This document shows, one piece after another, positions 6,088-21,032 of a stretch of 24,962 nt of DNA (positions within the stretch are counted from its first letter, which is position 1; every line of letters starts with the position of its first letter). The stretch is from a candidate division WOR-3 bacterium. Its GTDB lineage: Bacteria; Hydrothermota; Tepidihabitantia; Tepidihabitantales; Tepidihabitantaceae. The notes beneath the pieces are model-generated. The model worked only from the letters and a program-made list of their open reading frames with translations, was not told the DNA's origin and made no database searches. The translations under genes and the position numbers were made by a program. The stretch covers positions 1 to 24,962 of the forward strand of contig JBDRUL010000001.1 of NCBI GenBank assembly GCA_039801305.1. The letters run 5' to 3'.

Positions 6088-6842
6088 ACCAGTGTTGCAC
6101 CCAGCGCCGCCGCATAGAGCGGCTGCTGACATACTGTAACCTCCACTCCTAGCGCCTTTGCCAGCGCCCTCACCATTCCCGGATTCTGTGCAACTCCGCC
6201 GGTGAATACGACGGGTGGTACCACCCTGATCCGTGCTGCCAGTGCGGCAATTCTTCGCGCGAGCGCCTCGTGCAAACCGGCAAGAATATCAGCAACCGGT
6301 GTGTCGGCGGCCGCGAGCGAAAGGATCTCTGACTCTGCCATCACGACACACAGACTCGATATCGGTGCCGGGCGAGAGGACTCAAGACTGATCTCGCCAA
6401 AACTCGCGAGCGGCAGGTTAAGGGAGCGCGACAGCACTGCCAGAAAGTTGCCGGTACCCGCAGCGCAGCGGTCGTTCATCGCAAACTCCAGTACCGCGCC
6501 ATTCTCAAGCGCAATCACCTTTGAATCCTGACCACCGATGTCTACGATCGTCCGGCAGGTAGGATGCCAAAAGAGAATACCAGCTGCCGCTGCGCTGATC
6601 TCGGTTACACTGCCCGTGGCAAAATCGACCGTATGCCGGGCATAACCGGTCGCTGTCACGGTGGCAACCTGCTCTCCAGACAGCCCAGCTTCTGCAAGAC
6701 AGCGATCAAACAACCGTGCTGCAGTCTCCCGCGGCTTCAGTCCCGTCGGCTCGGTCCGGGTGCATACGATCCTGCGAACAGCTGAATCAAACAGCAGCAC
6801 TTTGGTGTTCACCGAGCCGGCATCAACTCCCGCGTGAATCAT
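6075..6842 (-). CDS. ATP-dependent [4Fe-4S] activator, HgdC/BcrAD_BadFG (acyl-CoA dehydratase activase) family
   Basis: Motifs GVDAGSVNTK, TGYAR, DIGGQDSK, MNDRCAAGTG, ISSLCVVMAESE and GGVAQN. ATG 6842 has GGAGG 5 nt upstream and an ATGA overlap with the upstream stop. Confidence 0.93.
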   Translation of the reverse strand: MIHAGVDAGSVNTKVLLFDSAVRRIVCTRTEPTGLKPRETAARLFDRCLAEAGLSGEQVATVTATGYARHTVDFATGSVTEISAAAAGILFWHPTCRTIVDIGGQDSKVIALENGAVLEFAMNDRCAAGTGNFLAVLSRSLNLPLASFGEISLESSRPAPISSLCVVMAESEILSLAAADTPVADILAGLHEALARRIAALAARIRVVPPVVFTGGVAQNPGMVRALAKALGVEVTVCQQPLYAAALGATLVQRK

Positions 6843-7891
6843 CCGTTCCTCCAAGAATCAAAATCCGGATTTCTCCCCGCCGTCTTGGCTGATCGCACAA
6901 AAGCATCGATGTTCTCGGCTGGGGTAGCCAGCGGCACCTCGCAGCCGGTCGCCGCAACGAAACCCGCGGGACAATTTTTCCCCTGCCCGACCATCGCTGT
7001 CACCTCCCGCTCAATCTCATCAGCACTCTTAAGCAGCAGACTGGTCGTGTCGTAGTTACCAATTATTCGGCAGCGGTCGCCTGCCGCCTTGATGGCCTGA
7101 CTGATCTCAATTCTGTCCACGCTAAGAAGATCGGCTCCACTCAAAGGCATCAGCTCGATAATAAGACTTGTATCCCCACAGATGTGCAGTACCACATCGA
7201 GGTCAAACCGGTGCAGGTAGCGGATTACCTCCCTTTCGTAAGGCAAGGCAAACTCCTGATACTGCTCCGGGCTGATCACACTACCCGAAGCTAGCGGATC
7301 TACCAGTATCGGCAGCCCGCCTGCCCGAATAATTGCCTGCGCAAATCGCTTCACCGAACGAGTGGCAAAATCCAGCAGGTGATGGATACGGTCGGGCGAA
7401 ACCAACAGACCGGTCAAGAACGCCTCCTGATCCAGTAGCTGCTGCGCGGTCGTAAAAGGTGCGGGCACATAGGCGACTATCGGCACCCGGTCGGAACAGG
7501 CGTCATAGGCGTAGCTTATGCCCTCAAGATAGACCCGCAGCCGACCGTCCCGGTGCGGGTCTGCCACATAGTCACCCGGCTCAACCGGTTCCTGCCAGCG
7601 CGGTTCGGACAGATACGGCAGGTCGTCCTCCGGATAGAAGTAGCGCGAGCCAAGCGCCTCGGCAATCAGGCCCACCTCGGAAAAGAACGAGATGAAATCG
7701 ATCCCGTACCTCTCCTGCGCTGCTAGTTGTGCCCGCGCCATCGTGAAACCATTGGTGTAGTAATCGCGCAAAGAAAAGCCGGCTGCCACCGCCGCGTGAG
7801 CGGTCAGGAGCGGGAAAACCGGAACCCTATCCTGTGGCTCATCGATGACCAGCAGCCCGAACCGCTCCCGGGGAGTGAGCAGGTCTTTCAC
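6839..7891 (-). CDS. URO-D superfamily protein, MtaA/MtbA/CmuA-type methylcobamide methyltransferase (copy 1)
   Basis: Motifs DRVPVFP, AEALG, PFTTA, DPLASGSVISP, LHICGD (Zn HxC), IGNYD and ATGCEVP (third Zn Cys). It neighbours a corrinoid protein. GTGA overlap with the upstream gene. Confidence 0.88.
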   Translation of the reverse strand: MKDLLTPRERFGLLVIDEPQDRVPVFPLLTAHAAVAAGFSLRDYYTNGFTMARAQLAAQERYGIDFISFFSEVGLIAEALGSRYFYPEDDLPYLSEPRWQEPVEPGDYVADPHRDGRLRVYLEGISYAYDACSDRVPIVAYVPAPFTTAQQLLDQEAFLTGLLVSPDRIHHLLDFATRSVKRFAQAIIRAGGLPILVDPLASGSVISPEQYQEFALPYEREVIRYLHRFDLDVVLHICGDTSLIIELMPLSGADLLSVDRIEISQAIKAAGDRCRIIGNYDTTSLLLKSADEIEREVTAMVGQGKNCPAGFVAATGCEVPLATPAENIDAFVRSAKTAGRNPDFDSWRNG

Positions 7892-9327
7892 CTTTTATCC
7901 CTCAACAGTTCCAGAAACGCCTCGATGCGAGTAGCAAGCTGCCGATCTATCTCGCGTGCTGGTGGAGCGACATCAAACTCCAGTACCGGCAAACCGGTCT
8001 CCGCCTTGACACGGTCAGCAATCAGGCGTGCCTCCATTGCGCAGTGAGAGCCGCCAAGAATGCCGGATATGACCACTCCCTCAGCCCGGTTAGCGTATAG
8101 CTGCTGGATAATAAGTTCTGAACGCTGCCGGCTCGTGCCGATGAGCGAAGCCGCCATGAATGACTCGGCAATTGCTGTCAACGGCTCCTTCTCTTCGTCG
8201 ATCGGCTCCAGCGCCTGATTTATCACATACTCGGTGCCCACCAGCCTTGCCCCGCGGTCTTCCACAAATGTAAGCAACAACGGATCAGCCGGCGGTGTTA
8301 CCCAGACCAGTCGCAGGGCGTCTTCAAGGACCACGCGCCGGTTCGCCTGCCGGCGCTGGCGGGCAGTCTGCAGCAGGTGCTCGACGACCCGCTCCCATTC
8401 GTCCGGATCAGAGTAGCAGTGCAGATTACCGAACTCCACAACCATCATCTCCAGTGCCGGCAGCACCCCATCACCATAGGCAAGCCTGCGCAGTTCCATT
8501 ACCATCCGGCGCAGACGGTTTGTCCGCCTTATACTCCTGCCCAGCTCCTCGTCAGTAACCCGGCAACCGGTCAGATGCTCAAGACGCTCAACCACCCGTC
8601 TGAACTCGCTCACCAGCAACTCACGGGCTTGAGCCTCGTAGACCATGCCGGTAAAAGTCTGGCAGGTACCAAGACGCCGCAGGGGCAGCTCCACCCAGAG
8701 CAGTTCCCGGGCAATGTCAGCCACCAGTTGCTCCACCCCGGAATAGTCATCGCAGGAGGCACCGGTCGCTGCAATTACCATCTCCGGGACGGGAAAGTAG
8801 GCGCGTCGGGCAAAAGCTGCCAGTGCTGCGCGCGAAAAGCAGGTTGCCTCGCCGATCCCAAGCTCCGCCGCGGTCTCCAACAGCACCTTTGACTCCATTA
8901 CGAAGGGTGTCCACCAGGAACAGTCCGGATAGAAAGCAATGCAATCGGGAAACGAGTTCACAATAACCGGCACTGCACCCAAGTCGCCCATCGTGGCAAT
9001 CACGTGCCTGCCGATCTGACGCGCACGGAAAAGCCGCTCGGTCTCGTTCTGCACAAATCCCCAGAGCCGCAGCGCTGCCAGCGAATTGTCAAACTTGAGC
9101 CGACGCAAATGACGGCAGCCATAGATGGCAAAGGTCTGGGGAGGGAACAGATACTGCGACCAGTGATTGCTTGTGTCTGAATGTACCCGAGGAGACTCCG
9201 ACTCATCCGGTCTGCGGAAATATCGAAAACTCTGTATCAGCTCGTCTGGAACCGTCTCGAAAAGCTCTGCCCACTCGTCAAAGGTGATCCTTGCTGGCAA
9301 CGGGTCCTGCCAGAGATTCGGTTTCAC
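7888..9327 (-). CDS. 2-hydroxyacyl-CoA dehydratase family (HGD-D) subunit, divergent, with an N-terminal extension
   Basis: Motifs TCFSRAALAA, GASCDD, ELGRSIRRTNRLRR, RLVWVTPP, EGVVISGILGGSHC and QLATRIEAFLELL (the family C-terminal motif). Confidence 0.85.
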   Translation of the reverse strand: MKPNLWQDPLPARITFDEWAELFETVPDELIQSFRYFRRPDESESPRVHSDTSNHWSQYLFPPQTFAIYGCRHLRRLKFDNSLAALRLWGFVQNETERLFRARQIGRHVIATMGDLGAVPVIVNSFPDCIAFYPDCSWWTPFVMESKVLLETAAELGIGEATCFSRAALAAFARRAYFPVPEMVIAATGASCDDYSGVEQLVADIARELLWVELPLRRLGTCQTFTGMVYEAQARELLVSEFRRVVERLEHLTGCRVTDEELGRSIRRTNRLRRMVMELRRLAYGDGVLPALEMMVVEFGNLHCYSDPDEWERVVEHLLQTARQRRQANRRVVLEDALRLVWVTPPADPLLLTFVEDRGARLVGTEYVINQALEPIDEEKEPLTAIAESFMAASLIGTSRQRSELIIQQLYANRAEGVVISGILGGSHCAMEARLIADRVKAETGLPVLEFDVAPPAREIDRQLATRIEAFLELLRDKR

Positions 9328-10433
9328 AGAGCCTCCAGAAAAGCCTCTATTCGAGTTCTTACCTGTTCCTGATTCTCGCCAGCATAGTCAGAATCGACTG
9401 CCAGTACCGGAATCCTGAGCTTCTGGCGCAGCCGCCTGATCTCAAAACTCCAAGGGTCACAGTAGAGCAGGGTCTTGACAACGATCCCTTGCACCCCACG
9501 TTCAGCGATAAGCTGCCGGGCAAATTGATATAGCTCATCATTGGGTCGGCGACAGGCGCAGGCTGGACGGCTGTAATAAAACCAAGCAAGCGACTCCAAC
9601 GAATCTCCCCGGCCTACCTGAGTCTCTGCCGACCAGCGTGCACCGGTGCAGAGTACGTCCCCCACAACATCTGCACCTGCCTCGAGCACATTGAGAAACC
9701 AGCGGTCAGCCGGTAGAAAGATACTACCTGCAAGCAGCAGCCTGGGGCGTACTGTCATACCGGCAGAAGCCGTCGGCAACAAGGAGAGTAGTCTTTCCAG
9801 CAGCGCCGTTGCCTGATCTGGATCCAAAGTGACGGCAAGAGCGGTCAGGTCAAGAATATCTGACTGTGACACCGCTGGCGCCGGTAGGGCACGATTCGCA
9901 TCAAACTTGCGGAGCAATTCTCGCAGCCGGTCGTAGCTGGTAATGGCATCGGCAAGACGGGTGCTCTCTGCACGCACACCAGTGAAACAAGCAAGCCAGT
10001 CTGCAAGTAACCTGAGCTGACGCAGAAACTCCCCGACTCTTGGCGAAAGCGGTTCTGAAGTCCTCGGCAGGTAAAGAGTGAACGCAGGCACACCCGCAAA
10101 GGCACTGACCGCTTCGCCCAAGCGCCGCATCATATCGCAGGTACTCACGTTGACTACGCCATCGACGAACCGGTAAAGACTTTCGGTCTCAAAACCGCCC
10201 AGACACACCTTGCAAAACGAGCAGGCATCTGACCGCAGATACTTCTCACCTCTTTCTTCTGCTTCGCGACTCGCGCGCAGTAGCCGCACCGGAATCGCAC
10301 CACTAGCGTGGATGAGCTCTGCCGGCACGTACTGACACCAGTAGCCGATGACCTTCTTGCCAGCGGCTCTGGCTTCGGAAAGCTCCTGCAACCGCTGCCG
10401 CTGCAGTCTCTCAAACTCTGCTGTCCTAATCAT
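9324..10433 (-). CDS. 2-hydroxyacyl-CoA dehydratase / double-cubane-cluster-like protein
   Basis: Motifs VIGYWCQYVPAELIHASG, DACSFCK, STCDMMRR, DVLCTG, PACACRRP, LLYCDPW and EQVRTRIEAFLE. ATG 10433 gives an ATGA overlap with the upstream stop; the track start is GTG 10439. Confidence 0.9.
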   Translation of the reverse strand: MIRTAEFERLQRQRLQELSEARAAGKKVIGYWCQYVPAELIHASGAIPVRLLRASREAEERGEKYLRSDACSFCKVCLGGFETESLYRFVDGVVNVSTCDMMRRLGEAVSAFAGVPAFTLYLPRTSEPLSPRVGEFLRQLRLLADWLACFTGVRAESTRLADAITSYDRLRELLRKFDANRALPAPAVSQSDILDLTALAVTLDPDQATALLERLLSLLPTASAGMTVRPRLLLAGSIFLPADRWFLNVLEAGADVVGDVLCTGARWSAETQVGRGDSLESLAWFYYSRPACACRRPNDELYQFARQLIAERGVQGIVVKTLLYCDPWSFEIRRLRQKLRIPVLAVDSDYAGENQEQVRTRIEAFLEAL

Positions 10434-11593
10434 CCCCACGGCGCGAACTCCATTGCCGAGATGAACTCCTGTTCAAAATCCGGTCTGCCTGAGAGCAATA
10501 TCTCCCGGCAGCGGTCAGCAAGCGTCCGCGCCACTGTCAACCGGCGGCTGTTAGCTGCCACTATCACCGCGCCGCGCAGAGCAAGATTGCGATGTTGCCG
10601 CTTCCGAGCTGTTGTATTGGGCAGCAGACCGATTATCAATGCTGCGTGCAGATCTGCCGCTCCGCCGAACCGGCCGGTGAGAAATATCCGTTCGATGTCA
10701 GCCGGTCTTGCGCCGATGCACTTCAAGAGTATTCTGATGCCGGCAGCGATCGCCGCCTTTGCCAGCTGAATCTCACGGAGATCGCGCTGACTAATGTAGA
10801 GACCGGTCTTCCCGAGCAGCAATCGCTCACCGCTGCGCAGCCGGCCGCTACTCTCTATGAGTCCGAGCCTCAGACCAGCTGCAACTGCAGCCAGAACCCC
10901 GGAACCACATATCCCGGTCGCCGGCTTACCCTGGATCGTTTCCACCAGCATCCTTCCACTTCGGACTCTCACACTGCTAACCGCGCCTGGGCAGGCGATG
11001 CTGCCGCACTCGAGCGTGGCGCCCTCGAAAGCCGGCCCCGCGGCTGTTGAACAGACCAGGATCCTCTCGCGGTTGCCCAACGCGACCTCACCGTTGGTAC
11101 CGGCATCAACTAGCAGCGAGAGCTGGCGGCTTCTGTGCATTCCGGCTGCTAATATTGCCGCGCAGCAGTCACTCCCCACAAACCTGCCCAGCAGTGGCAG
11201 CATCCGGATTCTGAGACGGGCAGTACCAATCTGCCTCACAGCAGAAAGAATCTTCCCCGTTGCCAGCTGCGACCGGTACGGATGTACTCCGAGCCCGGTG
11301 GGATCCCTGCCGAGCAGAAAATGCGCCATCACCGTGTTTCCCACTGCGGTTATTGATGACCGTCTGTCGATCTGCCAATCTGTCCTGACCCGGTCAATAA
11401 GCTCCAGTAGGCCTGCCCGGGCAACATCTGGGGCACGTTCAATCCGGCTGATCACATCAGAACCGAAGCACATCTGGGGATTCAGAATATCTTTACGCCG
11501 CACCACCCGGCTGGTGCATCTTTCTACGGCAGCAAAAGAGACTGTTGTGGTTCCGACGTCAACCGCCAGAACGCAGCTACTCAACTCGACCAT
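10430..11593 (-). CDS. ASKHA-domain (DUF4445) reductive activator of corrinoid enzymes, RACo/RamA-like, without an Fe-S ferredoxin domain
   Basis: Motifs AVDVGTTTV, NPQMCFGSDVISRI, AVGNTVM, GRFVGSD, LLVDAGTNGEV, CSTAAGPAFEG, GICGSG, ISQRDLREIQLAKAAI and LTGRFG. Confidence 0.88.
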   Translation of the reverse strand: MVELSSCVLAVDVGTTTVSFAAVERCTSRVVRRKDILNPQMCFGSDVISRIERAPDVARAGLLELIDRVRTDWQIDRRSSITAVGNTVMAHFLLGRDPTGLGVHPYRSQLATGKILSAVRQIGTARLRIRMLPLLGRFVGSDCCAAILAAGMHRSRQLSLLVDAGTNGEVALGNRERILVCSTAAGPAFEGATLECGSIACPGAVSSVRVRSGRMLVETIQGKPATGICGSGVLAAVAAGLRLGLIESSGRLRSGERLLLGKTGLYISQRDLREIQLAKAAIAAGIRILLKCIGARPADIERIFLTGRFGGAADLHAALIIGLLPNTTARKRQHRNLALRGAVIVAANSRRLTVARTLADRCREILLSGRPDFEQEFISAMEFAPWG

Positions 11594-12561
11594 TCTCTGA
11601 CTGCCGCAACCATTGCCCGGATATTTTCAAACGGCGTCTGGACAGGTACATCACAACCGGATGAAAGAATCAGCCTCGACAATCTCAACTCAAGACTTCG
11701 GCGAACCTCCGCCTGTACGTCTTCAGCAGTACCATCAAGCAGCAGGGTAGTCGAGACGCCGCCCATGATGGTCGCTTTCCCGTCAAGTTCTGGGTAAACT
11801 GATACCAGCCTGACATCCTCAATGCTGACAAAGTCGGCTCCAGTCCCAAACAGCTGCCCCAGTATCCGTGAGGTATCGCCGCAGACATGCAGACCGACCG
11901 GACTGCCCATGGAATGGGCATCTTCAACCAACCGCTTGAGATACGGTTGAGCAAAGTTGGAAAACTGTTCCGGGCTGATCACGCTCCCCGATGCCACCGG
12001 GTCTCCAATGAAGGGCACAGCGCCTGACCTGACAATCGCCGAAAGATAGCGGCGCTGATTCTCGGTGGCAACAAGAAGGAAATCCCTAGCCCTGTCCGGT
12101 TGCCCAATTAAGTCGATAAGGAACCTCTCAGTCCCCGCTAGCATTGACGCAAGCGAGAATGGACCCTTCAGCGAACCGAGTATCGTAGCCCTGCCACCGG
12201 TAAGCTCTGACAGCCTCAGGATTGCCTCCAGCACAACCGGCATCCGGCCGTCACGATCCGGGTCAGCTGGCTCGAGCCGTGAGACCTGCGGCGGCATCAA
12301 TAGGAACGGGTCTTCGTCTTCGGGAATGATGACCTGCGCGCCCATCGCCTCGGCTTCGACGACCGTGTCGGTGAAGACGGTTATTCCGTCGTAGTCGTAG
12401 AACCGGTAGGCGGAGAAAAGAGCCCGCGCCAGCGCGGTCGGCTGGGTCACCACCTCTGCCATAGAATAGCCTCCCAGTCGCGCTGCGTGATTCGCAGCCA
12501 CCATCGGAATAATCAGTTGTCGGCCAGACGCGCCGTCTGAAAAAACGCCGCCGAAACTCAT
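11581..12561 (-). CDS. URO-D superfamily protein, MtaA-type methylcobamide methyltransferase (copy 2)
   Basis: Motifs VEAEAMGA, GPFSLA, DPVASGSVISP, LHVCGD, IMGGVST and SSGCDVP. ATGA overlap with the corrinoid gene. Confidence 0.88.
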   Translation of the reverse strand: MSFGGVFSDGASGRQLIIPMVAANHAARLGGYSMAEVVTQPTALARALFSAYRFYDYDGITVFTDTVVEAEAMGAQVIIPEDEDPFLLMPPQVSRLEPADPDRDGRMPVVLEAILRLSELTGGRATILGSLKGPFSLASMLAGTERFLIDLIGQPDRARDFLLVATENQRRYLSAIVRSGAVPFIGDPVASGSVISPEQFSNFAQPYLKRLVEDAHSMGSPVGLHVCGDTSRILGQLFGTGADFVSIEDVRLVSVYPELDGKATIMGGVSTTLLLDGTAEDVQAEVRRSLELRLSRLILSSGCDVPVQTPFENIRAMVAAVREWSS

Positions 12562-13208
12562 CTGCGGCTTAGTCGCTCAAACTCCAATACCGCGCCGTGT
12601 GCATCCGCAGCCCAGCCGTCTGCACCAATCCGCCGGCTGAATTCCAGCGATACGGGTGCGCCACCAACTATAACCTTAACACAATCACGCAGACCGGCGC
12701 TCTGGAGTGCTCTGATCACCGCTGCCATCTTGGGCATTGTAGTGGTCATCAGGGAAGACATTCCCAGTGCCAGTATTCTCTCCTCGCGAACTGCCCGCAG
12801 GAAACCCTCAACCGGCACATTCCGACCAAGATCGATCACCTCGAAACCGGCAGCCTCAAGCATCACTTTCACGATGTTCTTGCCAATATCGTGAATGTCG
12901 CCCTGAACAACCCCGAGCGCCACTCTAATGGCAGTCCCTGCTCTGTCAGAGCCTTCGCTCACCAGAACCGGCCTGAGAATCTCGAATCCGGCATACATTG
13001 CCTTTGACGCTAGCAGTACTTCCGGAACAAAGCACTCCCTAGCTGCAAACCTCTCGCCCATCCGGCGCATGCCGGCGGCAAGACCAAGTGTAATTGCCTT
13101 CTCGGCAGAAAGCCCTTTTTTCACAACCTGTTGTGCCAGAGCTGCTACCAGCTCCGGCCTCATAGCAACTACGGCGTCGGCAAGCTGGCTGTAAAGCGAT
13201 TCATCCAT
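12558..13208 (-). CDS. Corrinoid (cobalamin-binding) protein, MtaC/MtmC-like (B12-binding_2 cap + B12-binding domain)
   Basis: GLAAGMRRMGERF...FVPEVLLA cap, then GDIHDIGKNIV (DxHxxG), LGMSSLMTTT and VGGAPV. Confidence 0.96.
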   Translation of the reverse strand: MDESLYSQLADAVVAMRPELVAALAQQVVKKGLSAEKAITLGLAAGMRRMGERFAARECFVPEVLLASKAMYAGFEILRPVLVSEGSDRAGTAIRVALGVVQGDIHDIGKNIVKVMLEAAGFEVIDLGRNVPVEGFLRAVREERILALGMSSLMTTTMPKMAAVIRALQSAGLRDCVKVIVGGAPVSLEFSRRIGADGWAADAHGAVLEFERLSRR

Positions 13209-13254: not shown

Positions 13255-14292
13255 TCAGATCACCCTGACCCGGCCTGTACCAGCTTCAACCCGGCCGATT
13301 GCCACCGCTGTGTCAATCCCGGCCGAGTGCAGACGGCTGACCAGATAGTCAGCACGGTCAGCTGGTACCGACAACAGCAGACCACCTGAAGTCTGGGCAT
13401 CACATAGCAGCAGGCGCTTCGTCTCAGGAACGTCAACACCAAACTCAGCGCGCGACTGCATGAACTCGTAGTTTCTTATCGACCCACCCGGAAAAAACTC
13501 CCTGCGGGCGAGCTCCTCTGCCCCGGCAACGAACGGTATCCGCTCTGATTCAATCTCGAGATCGACCCTGCTCGCACCTGCCAGCTCCCAGGCATGACCC
13601 AGCAACCCGAAACCGGTGACGTCAGTAGCAGCATTCACCCCTACTTCGCACATCACCTCAGCAGCAGTACGATTAAGCTCGCACATGACCCGGTTTGCCG
13701 CTGTGACTGTCTGCGAATCCGCAATACCAGCCTTTACCGCGGTCGTGATCACTCCGATACCCAGTGGCTTCGTTAGAACCAGTACGTCCCCCGGGCGGGC
13801 GCCAGCATTGGTCACGATCCGATCGGGATGGACCAAGCCCGTCACCGCCAACCCGCACTTCAGTTCCGTATCCCTAGTTGTATGTCCACCGGCAACAACC
13901 GCGCCAGCTTCCATCACCTTGTCCCAGACGCCAACGAGCATATCCCTAATCGTCTCATGCGCCAGCTCGCCGACCGGAAACCCGACAATGCAGAGAGCCG
14001 CCACTGGTCTGCCGCCCATTGCATAGACATCGGAAAGGGCATTCGCTGCCGCAATCTGTCCAAAAACCCTCGCATCTTCAGCAACCGGCGTCAACACATC
14101 AACCGTCAGCACGAGAGCCGTGTCTTCGCTGATCGCATAGATCCCGGCATCATCGGCGGTGTCACTGCACACCAGCAGCCGCGGATCAGAGAAAACAGGA
14201 AGCTGCCGCAGGACCTGCAGCAGGTCTTCCTGACATACCTTGCTGGCTCAGCCGGCTGCACGCGCGTAGTCGATCAGTCTTTTTTCTCGCAT
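13255..14292 (-). CDS. selD: Selenide, water dikinase (selenophosphate synthetase), selenocysteine form, 345 aa
   Basis: The track ORF starts at 14172, but the frame extends through an in-frame TGA (14248-14250) to ATG 14292, giving MREKRLIDYARAAG-U-ASKV. This matches the SelD GC/U-x-x-K active-site motif. The rest shows DDAGIY, TVDVLTP, AANALSDVYAMGG, TDVTGFGLLGH and DAQTSGGLL. Confidence 0.96.
14218..14245 (-). promoter_or_regulatory. SECIS-like hairpin of selD
   Basis: Immediately 3' of the UGA: CAGC-A-AGGT...ACCT-GCTG, a bulged stem with a G-starting apical loop. Confidence 0.75.
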
Positions 14293-14296
14293 GGCT

Positions 14297-14890
14297 TCAT
14301 ATCCTGAGAACGTCTGTTGCCGCGGTCATGATCTCAACGAGCTCGTACATGTTGGACACCTGCCCGACCCGGGTCTCGCCTTTGAGGCCGTAGTAATCCA
14401 GACAGGTACCGCAGACACGGATTGTAAACCCCAGACGCTCCAGCCGATTCAAAGTATCAAGGACAGCCGAACCAGCAACAGCCAGCTTCACTCCGCCATG
14501 TACAAGGACGATGGTAGCCGGCTTGGCAGGTACCTCGGCCAGCGAACGAAGAAAGAGCTCCATCAGCAGCTTGCCCAGCTCTTCGCTGCCTGTTCCAAAC
14601 TGTTCAGAAGCAATCATCACGACCCGGTCTGAGACCGCCGGTTTCTGGATTGACCCACCACCGGGACTGAGTTCGATCGAATACGTGTCTGGTACGTCAT
14701 CCAGCATGAGAACCGAGTATCCGCATTTTCTGGCAAATCTTGCAATATTGTCACAGACATCGGCACTATCTGCGACCACTCTCAACGTCCGCCCAGGATT
14801 CGATTCTATGGCTGAACGGACGCGAATAACGGGTTCAGGACAGTTGAGACCCCGAACGTCCACCAGTACCGGTGCGCCGTGTCCAGTCAC
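14297..14890 (-). CDS. yedF: Sulfurtransferase-like selenium metabolism protein YedF (TusA/SirA domain + DsrE-like domain)
   Basis: N-terminal VDVRGLNCPEPV (TusA CPxP motif). C-terminal FGTGSEELGKLLMELFL...GVKL...VCGTCLDYYGL...GQVSNMYE. Directly upstream of selD. Confidence 0.88.
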   Translation of the reverse strand: MTGHGAPVLVDVRGLNCPEPVIRVRSAIESNPGRTLRVVADSADVCDNIARFARKCGYSVLMLDDVPDTYSIELSPGGGSIQKPAVSDRVVMIASEQFGTGSEELGKLLMELFLRSLAEVPAKPATIVLVHGGVKLAVAGSAVLDTLNRLERLGFTIRVCGTCLDYYGLKGETRVGQVSNMYELVEIMTAATDVLRI

Positions 14891-15177
14891 TACGTACCTC
14901 CGTTCGGACAGTAGGTGTCTACGGAGTCGGGCGCGATACCAGAATTCCTGAGCAGACTCAGGGCAGCCGGCACCTGCGTATCATCAAGTACAAGAACAAC
15001 ACCACAATCAGCCAGCCGACGGGGGGCAGCTATCACTTCGATACCCCGATCTTTCAGGACCCTTGCGGCCGAAATCAACTCCTGCACCGTTGCAAACGAG
15101 AACGAAGTAAGTTCCTGCAGACAGGGTTCGGCCAAATGCTGTTGGCCAGAACTGGCATCTTCTCTTTCGCCGTTCAT
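14890..15177 (-). CDS. DUF3343 family protein (putative Se/S carrier)
   Basis: FATVQELISAARVLKDRGIEVIAAPRRLADCGVVL matches the F-x-S/T...LK..GI...PR...CG..L pattern. Its stop abuts the yedF start. Confidence 0.75.
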   Translation of the reverse strand: MNGEREDASSGQQHLAEPCLQELTSFSFATVQELISAARVLKDRGIEVIAAPRRLADCGVVLVLDDTQVPAALSLLRNSGIAPDSVDTYCPNGGT

Positions 15178-15261: not shown

Positions 15262-15918
15262 CTATTTCACGAGCACACATAACCGTGGCGCAGAGCCTCC
15301 CGCAACAGACCAGAGCAAATATACGCCCGCAGGCAGGTGACGAATACTGTTCTCTCCCGGCCACAGATTGCCTACACGACGACCAGCTGCATCAAACAAC
15401 TCGTACCGTCCGTAACCACGGAGCCAACCGACAGCAACTGTCGCTGTTGAACCATTCTTACCAAGACCAGCCTGATTTAGCTCATCCACACCAGCACCTG
15501 CAAATGTGCGGGTCGTAATAGAATCCTTCAACGTCGGATCGCCCAACGACCGTACCCACAGATTTACAACTGCTTCACCAGGAGTTGTGCTGGTATAGAC
15601 GGTAACATGTATCGCCGTATCTGCCTCGCCAACTGCGAGGGTGTCGTACAGCAAGACACCCGGCTCGGCTCAGCCGAAGCGCGTACAGTAACTGACCACC
15701 CAATCCGGGACAATGCTAATGACCCGGCAATCCAGTTCGTAGACATCGCGCTCCGTGCCGGTATTGACCAGCGAGAAGTGATATTCGACCACTTCCCCGG
15801 GCTGGACATACTGAACAGTGTCACTCCGGCAGAAGAAGTCGAAGGCGTGGCCGGCATGTACCAGTGGAGTGTTGATTGCCACCAGCAGTCCTGCCATCAA
15901 CAGCAAGCGGAGTGCCAT
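15262..15918 (-). CDS. Putative secreted selenoprotein, 218 aa (signal peptide, Ig-like domain with W-x4-C-x4-U, T9SS-like C-terminal tail)
   Basis: Track ORFs 15670-15918 and 15262-15654 are in the same frame and separated only by TGA 15670-15672 plus 5 sense codons: ...PDWVVSYCTRFG-U-AEPGVLLYDTL.... SD AAGGAG precedes ATG 15918, no SD precedes 15654, and a SECIS-like hairpin follows the TGA. Confidence 0.85.
15636..15667 (-). promoter_or_regulatory. SECIS-like hairpin after UGA 15670-15672
   Basis: CGAG-ccg-GGTGTC-ttgctgtac-GACACC-CTCG: a 6-7 bp perfect upper stem with a bulged lower stem. If U-A closes the loop, the apical loop GCUGU starts with G, 17 nt from the UGA. Confidence 0.75.
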
Positions 15919-15921
15919 CTT

Positions 15922-16698
15922 TCATCTCCTTTCCAAAACAGGCGTTCGCGCCGCCTGCAACACTTTTCGCGTCGTTCCTTGTTGAATGAAGGCTACTACC
16001 GCTAACCGATCCCGGCGCCAGAAGCCGGCCAAGGGTAATCTCTCGGCAACTTCACTTGTCTCAGCTCTTGAAATAACCACTGGACGGCCTTCTGGATCGG
16101 GTAGCAGCGCCCGCATCACCGAATTGAATACTGAGTCTGTTGCACCGGTCTGGGTAGCCCGTATGCTATCTTCGGTAATCACCGTGAGCAGCCGTAATGT
16201 CTCGGCCGGAGTCGAATCAACCCCCCAGAGCCGCACAACCACTCTGATGGTATCAGTGCTGACGTCCGCCTCGACAGCAATCTGTGCCAAGGGTCTGCTG
16301 CTCCTGGCTCCCAAAATATAGTTACGGAAAGTCGGATAGTTGTATTGCGGACCCGGAGTCCGCACGACCTCGCCGCCGTCAAAGACCGTTGCGGGCTCAC
16401 CACCGGTCTCGTAGTAGAACGCCCGCCGTCTCTCTACATACTCGGGCGAAAGAGTGTCGCCGGCAACTCGACGATGATAAGCGATAACAACGACACTGTC
16501 CTTGAACTCGCGCACCAGGCTGTCCAGAGCATGCGCCGCATACGGACAGTAGACACACCGCTGCCAAGTGAAGAATTCGGCCAGCACAATCCGGTTCGTC
16601 GGCACCAGCGGCACCAGCGGCGCATCTGAACAGCCTGCTGCAACCAGCAGACCAACAGCTACCACCTGCCTCCTAGCAGTACGGCACATCGGCGACAA
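15922..16698 (-). CDS. Omp28-like thioredoxin-fold lipoprotein (CxxC)
   Basis: Lipobox LVAAG|C, then RIVLAEFFTWQRCVYCPYA, VIAYH, GEPATVFDG, FNSVMRALL and VVAFIQQ...VLQAA. The exact start is uncertain. Confidence 0.85.
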   Translation of the reverse strand: MSPMCRTARRQVVAVGLLVAAGCSDAPLVPLVPTNRIVLAEFFTWQRCVYCPYAAHALDSLVREFKDSVVVIAYHRRVAGDTLSPEYVERRRAFYYETGGEPATVFDGGEVVRTPGPQYNYPTFRNYILGARSSRPLAQIAVEADVSTDTIRVVVRLWGVDSTPAETLRLLTVITEDSIRATQTGATDSVFNSVMRALLPDPEGRPVVISRAETSEVAERLPLAGFWRRDRLAVVAFIQQGTTRKVLQAARTPVLERR

Positions 16699-16714: not shown

Positions 16715-18502
16715 TTACCGCACCACTACGACTGGTACGACCCTTGCTTCTGTTTCAGCTGCCAGACGCAGAAAATAGGTACCAGCGACAACCGGACCGC
16801 CGGTAGCGTCCCGAAGATCCCATACCAGCCTGCCGGCACCGGCGACTCTGTCTGCAAGCTTGCGCACTATACGACCCGTGACATCGCATACCACCGCTGT
16901 ACCGCAGACGCCGCTAACCAGCGAATAGTCGATTACTGCCTGCTCCCGGACCGGATTACCTGCTCCTGCCAACCGGCAGCGCAGAGTTACTCCCGCCTCA
17001 TCGACTCCTGACACATACGGGTTTACAACGATGTCGTCGACAAACCAGCCCTGATCGGTGACGCTGGCGTCGGATATAAACCGAAATCGCACGCGCAGCG
17101 TCGAGCCCACATATGGAACAAGGCTGAATGTCTGGGGAAGCCAGCTGGTAGCTGCCCCGGTGAATGTTCCCAGTGTGCGCCAGAAGCGACCACCCATATT
17201 GACCTCAACCAGACAGTAGTCCCAGCCCTGCTCAACCGAGTACCACTGATAGTACTGCAGCTGACCGCCGTCACCAACCAGCACGTAAGGACTCACCAGC
17301 CACATATCTGACTCGTTCGGGTACTGACCGCTGGCAGTGGTTCCCCATGACCGGGTTGGCGAGTGCGCCCTGGTGGTTGTCTGTGCCCAGCGGCAGTTGA
17401 TTCCGGATGTCGTCCAGCCATTGAGTCCATGTTCAACGTCGTCGGAGAGTCCGGAACCAACCGTAATCAGCATCGGGAAGGTCGCGCTGCCCAGATCTCC
17501 CTCGACACCGCTGAACTGTAATGTCAGCTCAGCCAGGTGGCCTGAAGGGCAGGCGGTATCTATACTCACCTCAAACGCGCTGGACGGCTCGCGCATCTCG
17601 GCAACACCTATATCCGGGTAACTCGCGTTGGCGGTCACAACCGTGACATACGGATCGTTCGTTGAAAGTGTTGCAGTCGCACCAACTGCAGTCGCTGAGC
17701 CAACGTTGCAGAGTATCGGGCGCAGTTGAACAACCGTGCCCGGTCGAGCCGGTGAGTTGGTATAGCCATAGTACTCCAGTATCGGCCGCTGAACTACGTC
17801 GCAGACCGCGCCCTGATGAATCGCCCGGGTCGAATTGTTCTGAACAAAAACCACGAACCGGCAGTTTCTGGCCACCCAGGACTGTTGCAACGTAAAGTTG
17901 CGGGTACGGACTATTGTGTCATTTGCCGGTACCGTAATTGCCTCGCCTGAAGCATTCGGCAGCATTGTTCTCTCGACGTCGTGCAGACTGTCCATCCCCT
18001 GCCAGTAGTAGGGAATGTGGCTCTCGGTAAGCACGACCTGCAGCTGACCGCTGATCGGCGAACCGGTACTGTTGCGGATAACAATTGTCAGCACTCCACT
18101 GCGGGTTACTGAGTCGTAGGTGGAACTCAGGTCAATACCCAGCTGCACCGGATTGTTGACATGAGTGCGGAAGTAGTCCCAGTAGATCGGAAACATCGTG
18201 CCCGTGTGCATCCCGCCGACAACGCTCGAATCGCCTTCAAGAATCACGGTTGGGTACCCACTGACACCGTAGAAGCTCCGGCGTGCGTTGGCAGTGGCAG
18301 TGTAGAACGGGTCGCTGCTCGACGAGTGGTAGGCAATTGCCGCTACCGAGTCGATGCCCCGGAACTGCAACTCCTCTATCCCGCGTGCCGCGCCCGGGCA
18401 GTACTGGCACCATGTGGCCGTAAAGTCTTCAACCACTACAACACGATGGCCAGCCAGCACCGGCAACGATGCAATCAGCAGTATCGCTAAGAGACTCCTC
18501 AA
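16715..18502 (-). CDS. Secreted Omp28-like CxxC protein with Ig-like and jelly-roll (immune-inhibitor-A/MAM-like) domains and a FlgD/T9SS-like tail
   Basis: Signal peptide, then VVVEDFTATWCQYCPGAA, AIAYH, GYPTVILEG and CRFVVFVQ; later SPYVLV...DYCLVEV...VRFRFISDASVTDQGWFVDDI; tail CDVTGRIVRKL...WDLRDATGGPVVAGTYF. TTG start with SD AAGGAG. Confidence 0.9.
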   Translation of the reverse strand: MRSLLAILLIASLPVLAGHRVVVVEDFTATWCQYCPGAARGIEELQFRGIDSVAAIAYHSSSSDPFYTATANARRSFYGVSGYPTVILEGDSSVVGGMHTGTMFPIYWDYFRTHVNNPVQLGIDLSSTYDSVTRSGVLTIVIRNSTGSPISGQLQVVLTESHIPYYWQGMDSLHDVERTMLPNASGEAITVPANDTIVRTRNFTLQQSWVARNCRFVVFVQNNSTRAIHQGAVCDVVQRPILEYYGYTNSPARPGTVVQLRPILCNVGSATAVGATATLSTNDPYVTVVTANASYPDIGVAEMREPSSAFEVSIDTACPSGHLAELTLQFSGVEGDLGSATFPMLITVGSGLSDDVEHGLNGWTTSGINCRWAQTTTRAHSPTRSWGTTASGQYPNESDMWLVSPYVLVGDGGQLQYYQWYSVEQGWDYCLVEVNMGGRFWRTLGTFTGAATSWLPQTFSLVPYVGSTLRVRFRFISDASVTDQGWFVDDIVVNPYVSGVDEAGVTLRCRLAGAGNPVREQAVIDYSLVSGVCGTAVVCDVTGRIVRKLADRVAGAGRLVWDLRDATGGPVVAGTYFLRLAAETEARVVPVVVVR

Positions 18503-18562: not shown

Positions 18563-18748
18563 TCATACCAGTCCCATGCAGGAGAGACATATCTGTGTAC
18601 TGAGATGCTCGACCCTTGACCAGTCATCCGCGAGAGTACCGATCAGTATTGTGGCAATGGCTAGAGCCAGCAGCCCCACCCCCAAAAGCCGGCGAAATGG
18701 ACGTGTTCCTGATATCAGGGACGAACCGCCCCTCTGTAATTTAGTCAA
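18563..18748 (-). CDS. Small membrane-anchored CxxC protein, CD1871A-like
   Basis: One hydrophobic helix followed by QICLSCMGLV at the extreme C-terminus (ICxxCxG family motif). TTG 18748 has GGAGGT 7 nt upstream; the track start is 18757. Confidence 0.75.
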   Translation of the reverse strand: MTKLQRGGSSLISGTRPFRRLLGVGLLALAIATILIGTLADDWSRVEHLSTQICLSCMGLV

Positions 18749-18802
18749 CTGTTCCACCTCCGCCCCTGTACCAGTAGAAACGCGACGCCGTTCATGTTTT
18801 TC

Positions 18803-18989: not shown

Positions 18990-19757
18990 TCACATCCGGC
19001 TTCGCCACACCGCCCCATTGCCAGTCAGCGCCGCACCGAGCGCACCGACAAGTTGAGGCTCGCGGGGTATCAGCAGCGATACGCCCAGCCTGCGCTCCAC
19101 CAGCGCCCTGACACACGGGTTGAGTGCGACTCCGCCGCACATCACCACCGGTGGCTCAAGCCCCACCCGGCCAACCAGCGCCAGTAGCCGGCTCACAATT
19201 GCCTCGTGCAGCCCCAGTGCAATTGCACGCCTGCTGGTACCACGCGCGATCAGGGAAACCACCTCTGACTCGGCAAACACTGTGCACATCGAGCTGATCG
19301 CTGCCGACTCTTCTGCAAGAAGAGCCTCAGTACCGAACTCGTCCAGCGCATATCCGAGTGTGGTTGCCATCACTTCGAGGAATCGACCCGTTCCGGCTGC
19401 GCAGCGGTCGTTCATTTCGAACTCGCGCTGGCGGCCATTCTCCACGCGGATTGCCTTGGAATCCTGCCCCCCGATGTCGATCACTGTGCGGCAATCTGGA
19501 AACAGCGACTGTGCGCCAAGTGCGTGCGCCCTGATTTCGGTCACAGTGGAACAGCCAAGCCGTTCTGCTGCCAGATGCCGGCCATAGCCGGTTGCGACCA
19601 CCACATCAGGCAGATATTGATCGATCAGCTCTCGTACGCGTGCCCAGGGATCGGTACCGGTGTCGGTGATAACCCGGACACCGATCTGACCATCCTTGAG
19701 CAGAACCAGCTTGGTAGTCCGCGAACCGATATCAAGACCCGCGACAGTCGCTGCCAT
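18990..19757 (-). CDS. ATP-dependent [4Fe-4S] activator (DCCP-R / HgdC family)
   Basis: Motifs AGLDIGSRTTK, TGYGR, DIGGQDSK, MNDRCAAGTGRFL, ISSMCTVFAESEV and GGVALN. Directly downstream of the DCCP gene. Confidence 0.95.
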   Translation of the reverse strand: MAATVAGLDIGSRTTKLVLLKDGQIGVRVITDTGTDPWARVRELIDQYLPDVVVATGYGRHLAAERLGCSTVTEIRAHALGAQSLFPDCRTVIDIGGQDSKAIRVENGRQREFEMNDRCAAGTGRFLEVMATTLGYALDEFGTEALLAEESAAISSMCTVFAESEVVSLIARGTSRRAIALGLHEAIVSRLLALVGRVGLEPPVVMCGGVALNPCVRALVERRLGVSLLIPREPQLVGALGAALTGNGAVWRSRM

Positions 19758-19760
19758 CGC

Positions 19761-21032
19761 CTATTCGAGCTGCTCGATGAAAGCCTCGATGCGCGTGCGC
19801 AGCTGACCGGTATCCTCCTCGGAATAGTCAGTCACGATCTTCAGCGAAGGAATGCCAGCCTGTTTGAGCGCTGCCTCAACCCGCATGGCCTCGATGTTGT
19901 AGCCATGGCAGGTCTGAAGCACATACTGAATCGCGCCCTTCACGCCGAACTCTTGCGCCCGCTGCACCGCTGCGTCGATCCGTTCCTGATTTGGCGTAAA
20001 GCAGGCACAGTTGATCTTCAGATAGCGGTCAGCGATCGCAGTAATCTGCCCCTGCAGGTCCCGGGCGGTCTCGTCTATCAGATTCTCAAAGTAGCGCGAG
20101 CCGGTGCAGCTTTCATCCCAGACGATGACTCCGCCCGACTGCTCCACTAACGAATGGACTTTCCAGTTGCCCATCACTGTCGGGCAGCCGGCAATCATAA
20201 CCCGCTTCGCCCCGGGCTTCAGTGCCGAAACACCCTTGCCGATCCGCTCGGCAAGCTCAGCATTCAGGGCATTGACTGCTTGCGTGAATCTGACCGGCTC
20301 GTCAGCCAGCGCCACCTGCATCACCACCAGAGCGTCCAGCCCGGAGATCGGCGGCGGATCGACCTTACGGAGCTCAGCCAGCTTCTGCAGTGCCCGACGC
20401 TTCTCGTTCATTATCCGGATTGCTTCAGCGAGCCGGTTTGGCTCAACTTTCGTACCAGAAAGCTCCTCCAGTTTCAGCCGGAACTGATCCACTTCTGACC
20501 GCCACAACTCCGCATCCAGCCTGCCCTTCTTCTGCGGCAGCTCCATCACGTGGAAGTTCACCCTGCCCGAGAGAATCTCCCAAGTCTTCTTCTTTGCATC
20601 GCAGGTCGTCTCACCCACTGCCAGGCTCTTGACCGGCCCATACGGACAGGTCTTAGAAAACGCCAGACCCAGTGTGGACTTCACAAGGGGGCAGATGTCA
20701 CGTGGAAACATCTTCTCCGCATAGGGGATTGAAGCCTGTATTCCGCCACAAAGCGCGACCGGAACAGTGTTCGCTGCCATGGCAAGTTCTTCAGGAACGT
20801 AGATGCAGAAGGTACCGACAGTCTTCTTCCCGGCTTTCTTGCTCTCCACCAGCTCCGCCACCCGTCCACCGTGCGCCTCATGCAGCGCCTTGTCAAAGTA
20901 AGCCATCGCCTGCGGACGATTGGTCTGCGCACCAACAGTCATACGGAACAGCCGGTCGGTTGCCGCCTGCATCTCGTCATGCAGCGCCACATCCAAGCCC
21001 AGCTCCCTGAGCAGCTCTCTGTGTTCTGACAT
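19761..21032 (-). CDS. Double-cubane-cluster-containing anaerobic reductase (DCCP family, HGD-D fold)
   Basis: The N-terminus ELGLDVALHD...NRPQAMAYFD...HGGRVAEL is followed by VGTFCIYVPEEL, PRDICPLVKS, GETTCDAKKK, DESCTGSRYFEN, INCACFTPN, LQTCHGYNIE and DTGQLRTRIEAFIE. It is paired with an activator gene as in DCCP/DCCP-R. Confidence 0.9.
   Translation of the reverse strand: MSEHRELLRELGLDVALHDEMQAATDRLFRMTVGAQTNRPQAMAYFDKALHEAHGGRVAELVESKKAGKKTVGTFCIYVPEELAMAANTVPVALCGGIQASIPYAEKMFPRDICPLVKSTLGLAFSKTCPYGPVKSLAVGETTCDAKKKTWEILSGRVNFHVMELPQKKGRLDAELWRSEVDQFRLKLEELSGTKVEPNRLAEAIRIMNEKRRALQKLAELRKVDPPPISGLDALVVMQVALADEPVRFTQAVNALNAELAERIGKGVSALKPGAKRVMIAGCPTVMGNWKVHSLVEQSGGVIVWDESCTGSRYFENLIDETARDLQGQITAIADRYLKINCACFTPNQERIDAAVQRAQEFGVKGAIQYVLQTCHGYNIEAMRVEAALKQAGIPSLKIVTDYSEEDTGQLRTRIEAFIEQLE

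What the first reader, a model, noticed from the sequence alone, without database searches (positions are those of the whole stretch)
15262..15918. Hidden secreted selenoprotein with a C-x4-U motif and a T9SS-like tail: candidate new selenoprotein family
Seen: two track ORFs are one reading frame broken by a single TGA. The fused 218-aa product has a signal peptide (MALRLLLMAGLLVAINTPLVHA), an Ig-like body (FSLVNTG...DVYEL...DWVVSYCTRFG-U-AEPG...VTVY...GEAVVNLWVRS) and a sorting-type tail (YELFDAAGRRVG...LPAGVYLL). A strong hairpin follows the UGA with the same UGA-GCC start as the selD SECIS. The downstream half has no SD and would lack an export signal on its own. The gene lies about 1 kb from a Sec-type selD. 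Established: known bacterial selenoproteins are mostly oxidoreductases with UxxC/CxxU motifs. A C-x4-U pair in a secreted beta-sandwich protein is not among the families I know. From memory, similar W-x(3-5)-C-x4-C motifs occur in small Bacteroidota T9SS proteins, which would be the Cys homologs. Inference: an extracellular selenenyl-sulfide redox or metal-binding site, perhaps serviced by the adjacent Omp28-like CxxC proteins.
Basis: partly seen in the sequence, partly recalled or inferred. Interest (0 to 1): 0.92.

Follow-up and report, generated by a model that had tools for sequence, protein, structure and literature searches.

The report
New secreted selenoprotein family, Cx4U hairpin
The broken reading frame is a real gene for a secreted, selenium-containing (selenocysteine) protein of a family not yet listed, and it always sits beside, or is fused to, a thioredoxin-like partner in a gene cluster tied to selenium activation.

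Summary
On the minus strand, 15262-15918 is one frame with a single in-frame TGA. The TGA is at 15670-15672 (codon 83).

Main evidence that it encodes selenocysteine:
- In an alignment of 34 homologues from the same phylum (public records name relatives candidate division WOR-3), the TGA falls in one column in 6 members. These lie in three clades and come from independent assemblies. All 28 others have Cys.
- Cys78 is invariant, giving the motif W-x4-C-x4-[C/U]-x-x-P-G.
- A hairpin, CUCGC-N5-GCGAG, lies 35 nt after the UGA. It is present in 6 of 6 Sec forms and fully paired in only 2 of 28 Cys forms. It fits the published bacterial SECIS model.
- The genome has selA, selB and a Sec-type selD.

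AlphaFold gives an Ig-like beta-sandwich with C78 and U83 flanking a tight beta-turn, followed by a T9SS-type tail.

The gene directly follows an Omp28-like CxxC lipoprotein gene in 34 of 34 loci, and is fused to such a domain in 13 of 94 distant relatives. selD, selA or selB usually lies nearby.

No Pfam or NCBIfam model matches the body domain. A 2026 list of 119 prokaryotic selenoprotein families has nothing comparable.

[quoted passage not shown] A role in selenium capture is possible but unproven.

Earlier scan notes cover only this same window.

The parts
15262..15918 (-). Whole selenoprotein gene: 218 codons plus a TAG stop, with one in-frame UGA
   Evidence: full-length Cys homologues
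15853..15918 (-). Signal peptide, residues 1-22 (ends ...PLVHA, then GHAFDF)
   Evidence: Read from the sequence; helix 2-16 in the AlphaFold model; the position is variable in sequence but hydrophobic in all homologues
15469..15852 (-). Ig-like beta-sandwich body, residues 23-150. This is the family-defining domain
   Evidence: pLDDT above 90; Foldseek hits to MG, ASH/PapD and PorA-N type sandwiches; profile search found 205 relatives
15685..15687 (-). Codon of Cys78, the invariant partner of U83
   Evidence: Invariant in the alignments
15670..15672 (-). UGA codon 83, read as selenocysteine
   Evidence: Same column is TGA in 6 and Cys in 28 of 34 members; N-terminal and C-terminal half-proteins in public databases end or begin at or near this column
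15639..15661 (-).
   Evidence: A hairpin is present here in all six Sec forms with different sequences, but its energy is not clearly different from Cys forms
15624..15640 (-). Best SECIS candidate: CCUCGC / AGUUG / GCGAGG, loop starting 35 nt after the UGA, -9.3 kcal/mol
   Evidence: Core CUCGC-N5-GCGAG is identical in 6 of 6 Sec forms and fully paired in 2 of 28 Cys forms. It meets the bSECIS constraints (constraints quoted from PMC13188914)
15265..15441 (-). C-terminal beta-sandwich sorting domain (T9SS type A-like), residues about 160-218
   Evidence: TIGR04183 matches 21 of 30 family members and PF18962 matches 10 of 30. P0001 itself is below threshold. AlphaFold pLDDT is 84-91
15922..16698 (-). 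Omp28-like lipoprotein with RCVYCP (CxxC), the obligate neighbour and proposed redox partner
   Evidence: PF11551 and NF045500 hits; immediately upstream in 34 of 34 loci; CxxC conserved, and UxxC in L047; fused to the Ig domain in other proteins
16715..18502 (-). Second Omp28-like protein (WCQYCP) with a MAM-like domain and a sorting tail
18563..18757 (-). Small single-helix membrane protein ending in C-LS-C-MGLV. The first Cys is TGA in five related loci
14890..15177 (-). DUF3343 Se/S-carrier-like protein
   Evidence: PF11823; conserved downstream in several of the related loci
14297..14890 (-). YedF (TusA-like plus DsrE-like domains)
   Evidence: TIGR03527 at 171.9 bits
13255..14292 (-). 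selD with Sec at codon 15 (TGA at 14248-14250)

Best explanation
The gene encodes one exported 218-residue selenoprotein. It founds a small, so far unnamed Sec/Cys family found in the window's phylum (relatives are labelled candidate division WOR-3).

UGA-83 is decoded as selenocysteine by SelB and tRNA-Sec. Decoding is directed by a short hairpin about 35 nt downstream (15624-15640), possibly stacked on a first hairpin.

The mature protein is an Ig-like beta-sandwich. Cys78 and Sec83 sit on the two sides of a tight beta-turn, so they can open and close a selenenyl-sulfide bond.

It works as an extracytoplasmic thiol/selenol exchange module together with the thioredoxin-like Omp28-type CxxC lipoprotein encoded directly upstream. 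This parallels how the Ig-fold N-terminal domain of DsbD exchanges a hairpin disulfide with thioredoxin-fold partners.

The C-terminal domain sends it to the cell surface by a T9SS-like route.

Shown: one frame, Sec/Cys column, SECIS-like hairpin tied to Sec forms, Sec machinery, fold, obligate adjacency and fusion with the Omp28-like domain.

Inferred: redox exchange, direction of electron flow, surface location, and any link to selenium supply.
For: One frame with a single TGA.

Cys in 28 and TGA in 6 of 34 aligned members at the same column, with C78 invariant. The Sec forms lie in three separate clades; at least 3-4 Sec/Cys switches are needed on the tree.

Further half-proteins end just before the Sec column or begin a few residues after it, in a search of 1.84 billion representative proteins.

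Hairpin CUCGC-N5-GCGAG is present in 6 of 6 Sec forms and fully paired in 2 of 28 Cys forms. It satisfies the bSECIS rules for loop, G position and spacing of 35-36 nt in all six. Energies are -6.0 to -10.3 kcal/mol, and 5 of 6 pass the -7.5 limit (rules from PMC13188914).

selA, selB and Sec-selD are in the genome. selB and tRNA-Sec are present in all four other genomes with Sec forms.

TGA is a normal stop for the upstream gene.

AlphaFold pLDDT is 86 for the whole protein and 92 for the body. C78 ends a strand and U83 starts the next one after a 2-4 residue turn.

The Omp28-like gene is directly upstream in 34 of 34 loci. Of 94 distant relatives, 13 carry an Omp28 or DUF1223 domain in front of one or more copies of this domain.

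The partner's CxxC is UxxC in L047. The cassette's small membrane protein has U/C-xx-C, so Sec moves among the partners.

Distant relative P0077 has W-x4-C-x4-C-Y-P-P four times and a Pfam DsbD_N hit over that hairpin. In nDsbD the cysteines lie on opposite strands of a hairpin of an Ig fold and serve thioredoxin-fold partners (PMC7347389).
Against: There is no biochemical evidence of selenium in the protein.

tRNA-Sec was not found in this genome. The assembly is only 63% complete.

The SECIS spacing of 35 nt is near the upper limit of the consensus model (16-37 nt).

Homology to nDsbD is not supported: hhalign was not significant, nDsbD is not in the Foldseek top 50, and none of 30 close members hits DsbD_N. 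The analogy may therefore be convergence.

No membrane electron donor of the DsbD or CcdA type was looked for.

P0001's own tail does not reach the T9SS model threshold. The PorU-like protein scores 398.6 bits against a cut-off of 420.
Confidence: 0.62

Rival explanations
1. Selenium capture relay. The C-x4-U hairpin, the two Omp28-like CxxC proteins and the small membrane U/CxxC protein would bind or reduce external selenium species (selenite, selenotrisulfides, elemental Se). They would hand the selenium inward to YedF, DUF3343 and SelD. This is a more specific form of the main explanation.
For: selD lies within 1.5 kb downstream in 24 of 34 loci, often with DUF3343 and YedF in between. selA is next door in G131, and selB plus tRNA-Sec are on the same contig in G139. 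Of the 58 genomes with a strong homologue, 53 have selA, against 69 of the other 214. YedF and DUF3343 are published candidates for Se handling (PMC5322559). The review states that no specific Se uptake system is known in prokaryotes.
Against: Related genomes are not independent, so the co-occurrence is inflated. In L050 and L051 the cassette has lost selD but keeps the corrinoid and URO-D genes. L053 has no sel gene nearby. Some fusion-type relatives occur in genomes where no selA was found. Selenoprotein genes sometimes sit near sel genes for regulatory reasons only. No transporter has been identified.
Confidence: 0.2
2. Soft-metal or metalloid binding site. The Cys/Sec pair would chelate Hg, Cu(I), As or similar at the cell surface, for detoxification or sensing rather than for redox exchange.
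For: Several known bacterial selenoproteins are metal binders with close Cys/Sec pairs (Table 1 of PMC13188914). The invariant acidic residues D92, D100 and E146 lie near the motif.
Against: No metal-resistance or metal-transport genes are in the conserved cassette. The obligate partner is a thioredoxin-like CxxC or UxxC protein, which points to exchange chemistry. Two ligands on a tight hairpin make a poor chelate without further ligands.
Confidence: 0.1
3. Purely structural cross-strand disulfide in a surface adhesin or scaffold. Sec would be an occasional neutral replacement of Cys with no catalytic role.
For: Foldseek matches are generic adhesin, scaffold and MG-type sandwiches. Some repeat copies in distant relatives have lost both cysteines (P0057 first copy; P0068).
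Against: Sec is costly and almost always occupies reactive sites. It is maintained, with a conserved SECIS, in three clades. The pair and its flanks (W73, P86, G87) are the most conserved part of the domain. Sec also appears in the partners' CxxC motifs.
Confidence: 0.06
4. Artefact or decay: a nonsense mutation, an assembly error, or two separate genes.
For: Gene callers split it into two products, P0002 and the 82-aa ORF. tRNA-Sec was not found in this incomplete genome.
Against: The same TGA is in the same column in six independent assemblies, with protein-level conservation continuing across it. The downstream half has no start context and no signal peptide. Cys forms are single genes. Sec machinery is present.
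Confidence: 0.02

Closest known systems
[quoted passage not shown]
   Same: Both are Ig-like sandwiches with two redox-active chalcogen residues on opposite sides of a beta-hairpin (C103-x5-C109 in nDsbD; C78-x4-U83 here). Both act outside the cytoplasm with thioredoxin-fold CxxC partners and occur covalently fused to such partners in some proteins. The local motif C-x4/5-C-Y-P-P is shared with distant relative P0077.
   Different: There is no detectable overall sequence or Foldseek kinship. There is no DsbD membrane domain. The protein carries a T9SS-type tail and uses Sec in some members. The partner is Omp28/DUF1223-like rather than DsbC, DsbG or CcmG.
Omp28-related selenoprotein, 'hypothetical protein GOS_C' (NCBIfam NF045500, UxxC)
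   Same: It belongs to the same cassette logic. The two upstream genes are Cys-form relatives of this known selenoprotein family. In L047 the neighbour itself carries UxxC.
   Different: It is a different protein and fold. P0001 does not match NF045500. Sec sits in a thioredoxin-like UxxC there, and in a C-x4-U hairpin of an Ig domain here.
DUF1573 domain selenoprotein (PF07610, UGC motif) from the Olavius symbiont study
   Same: Both are exported proteins with Sec close to Cys in the motif (Table 1 of PMC13188914). That DUF1573 is also a small beta-sandwich domain of the ASH/PapD-like kind is my recollection, not tested here.
   Different: There is no Pfam match to PF07610 for any of 30 members. 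The motif differs (UGC versus C-x4-U). My recollection of the DUF1573 consensus places its motif on a different strand; this was not tested.
CARDB, NPCBM_assoc (NEW3) and HYDIN-like Ig domains
   Same: Remote relatives found with the body profile carry these Pfam domains. The N-T-G strand motif is shared.
   Different: Those families have no conserved Cys pair and no Sec. The present family is a distinct subgroup defined by W-x4-C-x4-[C/U]-x-x-P-G and by its Omp28-like partner.

Membership tests
Bacterial selenoprotein (UGA-Sec recoding) | In-frame UGA aligned with Cys in homologues, with conservation continuing downstream | tested here: met
   6 TGA and 28 Cys in one column; strong conservation on both sides
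Bacterial selenoprotein (UGA-Sec recoding) | bSECIS hairpin: loop of 3-9 nt with G in its first two positions, stem of 4-16 bp, 16-37 nt after the UGA, energy at or below -7.5 kcal/mol | tested here: met
   15624-15640: 6-bp stem, loop AGUUG, spacing 35 nt, -9.3 kcal/mol. Shared by all six Sec forms and rare in Cys forms. The rules are quoted. bSECISearch itself was not run.
Bacterial selenoprotein (UGA-Sec recoding) | selA, selB, selD and tRNA-Sec in the genome | tested here: inconclusive
   selA 553.8 bits, selB 390.9 bits and Sec-type selD were found. tRNA-Sec was not found in this 63%-complete assembly, but it is present in the four other genomes with Sec forms.
Bacterial selenoprotein (UGA-Sec recoding) | Selenium demonstrated in the polypeptide | not testable with these tools
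   Needs 75Se labelling or mass spectrometry
T9SS type A cargo | C-terminal sorting domain (TIGR04183 / PF18962) | tested here: inconclusive
   P0001 itself gives no hit at E up to 0.1-1. 21 of 30 aligned homologues hit TIGR04183 and 10 of 30 hit PF18962. AlphaFold folds residues 160-217 as a small sandwich.
T9SS type A cargo | T9SS machinery in the genome | tested here: inconclusive
   A PorU-like protein covers 6-1083 of 1095 positions at 398.6 bits (cut-off 420). PorV-like matches are weak, at 70 bits or less. Other components were not searched.
DsbD N-terminal domain (PF11412) | Ig fold with a redox Cys pair on a beta-hairpin | tested here: met
   AlphaFold secondary structure: strand 74-79, turn, strand 82-84. 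The nDsbD description comes from PMC7347389. The distance was not measured.
DsbD N-terminal domain (PF11412) | Sequence or fold membership (Pfam hit, profile match, Foldseek) | tested here: not met
   0 of 30 members hit PF11412. hhalign probability was 0.6%. nDsbD is not among the top 50 Foldseek hits. Only distant relative P0077 scores 25.8 bits.
Omp28-related selenoprotein GOS_C (NF045500) | Match to the family model | tested here: not met
   No hit for P0001 or any of 30 members. The neighbours hit at 56-71 bits, below the cut-off of 200.
DUF1573 selenoprotein (PF07610) | Match to PF07610 and a UGC motif | tested here: not met
   No hit. The motif here is C-x4-U.

The most novel reading that the evidence does not exclude
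The cassette would be a dedicated selenium acquisition relay. It comprises the small membrane U/CxxC protein, two Omp28-like C/UxxC proteins and the Ig-like C-x4-U/C protein. It would capture or reduce external selenium at the cell envelope and pass it, chalcogen to chalcogen, to YedF, DUF3343 and SelD. That would be the specific prokaryotic selenium uptake route that the field has not found.
Probability: 0.2. Interest if true: 0.9.

Novelty: new variant of a known kind. Interest (0 to 1): 0.68.

Why it matters
Selenoprotein families are still being catalogued. This one is absent from Pfam, from NCBIfam release 20 and from a 2026 inventory of 119 families, and gene callers split it in two.

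It places selenocysteine in an Ig-type fold on a beta-hairpin of an exported, probably surface-bound protein. That is unlike the usual thioredoxin-fold UxxC/CxxU sites.

It shows Sec moving among three partner proteins of one conserved cassette, which marks those sites as chemically coupled.

The cassette sits beside selD, yedF, selA or selB. This gives a concrete, testable candidate for how some bacteria handle selenium outside the cytoplasm, where no specific uptake system is known.

In practice, annotation pipelines could recover dozens of mis-split genes with one new model.

Tried and rejected
- Pfam and NCBIfam scans of P0001 and of 30 members found no model for the body domain.
- A profile search of PDB sequences gave only noise.
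- Foldseek with the whole model and with the body alone gave only generic Ig-like sandwiches.
- hhalign of the body profile against E. coli nDsbD was not significant; only the first-strand AFDF words aligned. I therefore claim analogy with nDsbD, not homology.
- The search for related loci on genome contigs returned one truncated locus because its peptide patterns were too narrow. The taxonomic range outside the phylum is therefore unknown.
- tRNA-Sec was not found in G000 by ARAGORN or by Rfam RF01852.
- The first hairpin as the SECIS: its energy does not separate Sec from Cys forms (-7.1 versus -5.2 kcal/mol on average), so I prefer the second hairpin.
- A weak NF041425 (OS_HP2) hit in P0057 and a weak NF040920 hit in the small membrane protein were not reproduced in other members.
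- Literature searches for selenoprotein with WOR-3, Omp28 or T9SS found nothing relevant. The Haft and Tolstoy 2025 paper (PMC12013261) is not held, so I could not check it directly.
- An alternative genetic code was rejected because TGA ends the upstream gene three bases before this ATG.

Full report
**1. The observation.**
The feature lies on the minus strand. The ORF list shows 15670..15918 (82 aa, ATG start) and 15262..15654 (130 aa, TTG start) in one frame. Translating 15262-15918 with TGA read as U gives a 218-residue product with one recoded codon, U83. The TGA occupies 15670-15672.

An AGGAG box precedes the ATG and overlaps the end of the upstream gene. That gene ends with TGA at 15922-15924. 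TGA is therefore a normal stop in this organism, and recoding must be local.

selD (13255-14292) has its own in-frame TGA at 14248-14250 in the known U-x-x-K position. It scores 360.8 bits against TIGR00476 when read through.

**2. Is it selenocysteine?**
A search of 5.8 billion proteins found three full-length homologues (219-243 aa, 47-61% identical) with Cys aligned to U83. It also found a 128-aa protein that is the C-terminal half of a second TGA-bearing gene. Its contig, L002, reads through one TGA at codon 83 with the same flanks.

A six-frame search of the 272 species genomes of the phylum found about 58 genomes with a strong match to residues 10-147. Five of these, the window's own genome among them, have one TGA inside.

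In a MAFFT alignment of 34 members, the TGA falls in exactly one column in six of them. These are the window, L002, G223, G204, G139 and G131. All 28 others have Cys.

Cys78 is invariant. The local motif is W-x4-C-x4-[C/U]-x-x-P-G.

On a maximum-likelihood tree the Sec forms fall in three clades of two GTDB families. At least 3-4 Sec/Cys switches are required. This is the usual pattern of genuine selenoprotein families.

A profile search of 1.84 billion representative proteins found further half-proteins. They end just before the Sec column (P0065, P0079) or begin a few residues after it (P0073, P0085, P0088, P0103), so more Sec forms exist.

**3. Recoding signal.**
All six Sec forms carry CUCGC-N5-GCGAG at nt 34-48 counted from the U of UGA. 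Only 2 of 28 Cys forms can form all five pairs, and one of those is the closest Cys relative of the window's clade.

I scanned with the published bacterial SECIS constraints: loop of 3-9 nt, G in the first two loop positions, stem of 4-16 bp, spacing of 16-37 nt, and energy at or below -7.5 kcal/mol (PMC13188914). This hairpin is the best solution in all six Sec forms. Spacing is 35-36 nt and energies are -6.0 to -10.3 kcal/mol. The mean best value in Cys forms is -3.0 kcal/mol.

In the window the hairpin is at 15624-15640. It does not separate Sec from Cys forms.

**4. Machinery.**
The genome is 63% complete. It has selA at 553.8 bits and selB at 390.9 bits. tRNA-Sec was not found.

The four other genomes with Sec forms all have selB and tRNA-Sec above the cut-offs.

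**5. The protein.**
AlphaFold with 30 homologues gives a mean pLDDT of 86 and above 90 for residues 23-144. The body alone gives 91.7.

The body is a nine-strand sandwich. C78 ends one strand and U83 begins the next after a 2-4 residue turn, so the two should be neighbours.

Foldseek finds only generic sandwiches: complement MG domains, ASH/PapD-like domains and the PorA N-terminal domain.

The tail (residues 160-218) folds as a small sandwich. The aligned tails of 21 of 30 homologues match the T9SS type A sorting model TIGR04183. The genome has a near-full-length PorU-like protein at 398.6 bits.

**6. Context.**
In 34 of 34 loci the gene directly follows an Omp28-like lipoprotein gene whose CxxC motif is conserved. 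A second, larger Omp28-like gene usually lies further upstream.

selD lies within 1.5 kb downstream in 24 of 34 loci, with or without DUF3343 and YedF in between. Elsewhere:
- selA is adjacent in G131.
- selB and tRNA-Sec are on the same contig in G139.
- The corrinoid protein and URO-D-type methyltransferase follow directly in L050 and L051.

Of the 58 genomes with a strong homologue, 53 have selA, against 69 of the remaining 214. Related genomes are not independent, so this figure overstates the link.

**7. Partner.**
Distant relatives found with the body profile include proteins with an N-terminal Omp28/DUF1223 thioredoxin-like CxxC domain. This is followed by one to five copies of the domain, with C-x4-C retained in at least one copy. 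Such fusions make up 13 of 94 relatives scanned.

In L047 the Omp28-like neighbour has TGA at the first Cys of its CxxC. That is the arrangement of the known selenoprotein family GOS_C, NF045500 (PMC13188914).

The small membrane protein at the head of the cassette ends in [C/U]-x-x-C-x-G-L. The first Cys is TGA in five loci.

Sec therefore appears at the reactive position of three different proteins of one cassette. This is best explained if these sites exchange with each other.

**8. Mechanism and comparison.**
The nearest known working principle is nDsbD. It is an Ig fold whose C103 and C109 lie on opposite strands of a hairpin and exchange with thioredoxin-fold partners (PMC7347389).

A distant relative, P0077, repeats W-x4-C-x4-C-Y-P-P four times. 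It gives a Pfam DsbD_N hit over that hairpin.

Overall homology is not supported. I claim that the protein works like nDsbD, not that it is a member of that family.

Whether the cassette serves general envelope redox chemistry or selenium capture for SelD cannot be settled by sequence. YedF and DUF3343 are only published candidates for selenium handling (PMC5322559).

**9. Novelty.**
No Pfam or NCBIfam model covers the domain. Public names for members are 'hypothetical protein' or 'T9SS type A sorting domain-containing protein'. The 2026 table of 119 prokaryotic selenoprotein families has no comparable entry. One relevant paper, PMC12013261, could not be read.

I rate it a new selenoprotein family with an unusual fold and site, within the known phenomenon of bacterial Sec recoding.

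Noticed in passing
window 18563-18757 (-); L020, L028, L005, L043, L003: The 64-aa single-helix membrane protein at the head of the cassette ends in ...ST-x-I-C-LS-C-MGLV. In five related loci the first Cys is TGA, 7-8 codons before the true TAA or TAG stop. This is a second candidate Sec/Cys family with no NCBIfam match.
   Followed up: partly
L047 (G131:C137), Omp28-like gene upstream of the Sec-form Ig gene: The partner lipoprotein reads FTNAR-U-TYCPW, with TGA at the first Cys of its CxxC. This genome therefore has two selenoprotein genes side by side.
   Followed up: yes
L050, L051, L052; window 11581-13208: Where selD and yedF are missing from the locus, the cassette is still followed by the B12-binding protein and the URO-D/MtaA-like methyltransferase. 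The link to the corrinoid genes may be as old as the link to selD.
   Followed up: partly
G128:C225:2685-3053: One homologue has an in-frame TAA instead of TGA. It may be a pseudogene or an alignment that crosses two genes.
   Followed up: no
G131:C122:12901-13644: Two tandem copies of the body domain lie in one 388-aa frame, apart from the cassette copy.
   Followed up: no
G139 contigs C235 and C105: There are two full-length selB genes, each with a tRNA-Sec beside it, in one genome bin. This is either a duplication or a mixed bin; contamination is given as 4%.
   Followed up: no
window 6000-11600 and 19000-21000 (HGD-D and BcrAD-type genes): 2-hydroxyglutaryl-CoA-dehydratase-like subunits and their activase flank the selenium genes here. 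They also appear among the STRING partners of YedF and DUF3343 in Slackia (Table 1 of PMC5322559).
   Followed up: no
P0023 (242 aa family member): One source names this member 'rhodanese-related sulfurtransferase', although no such domain was seen in the family. This is probably a transferred annotation.
   Followed up: no
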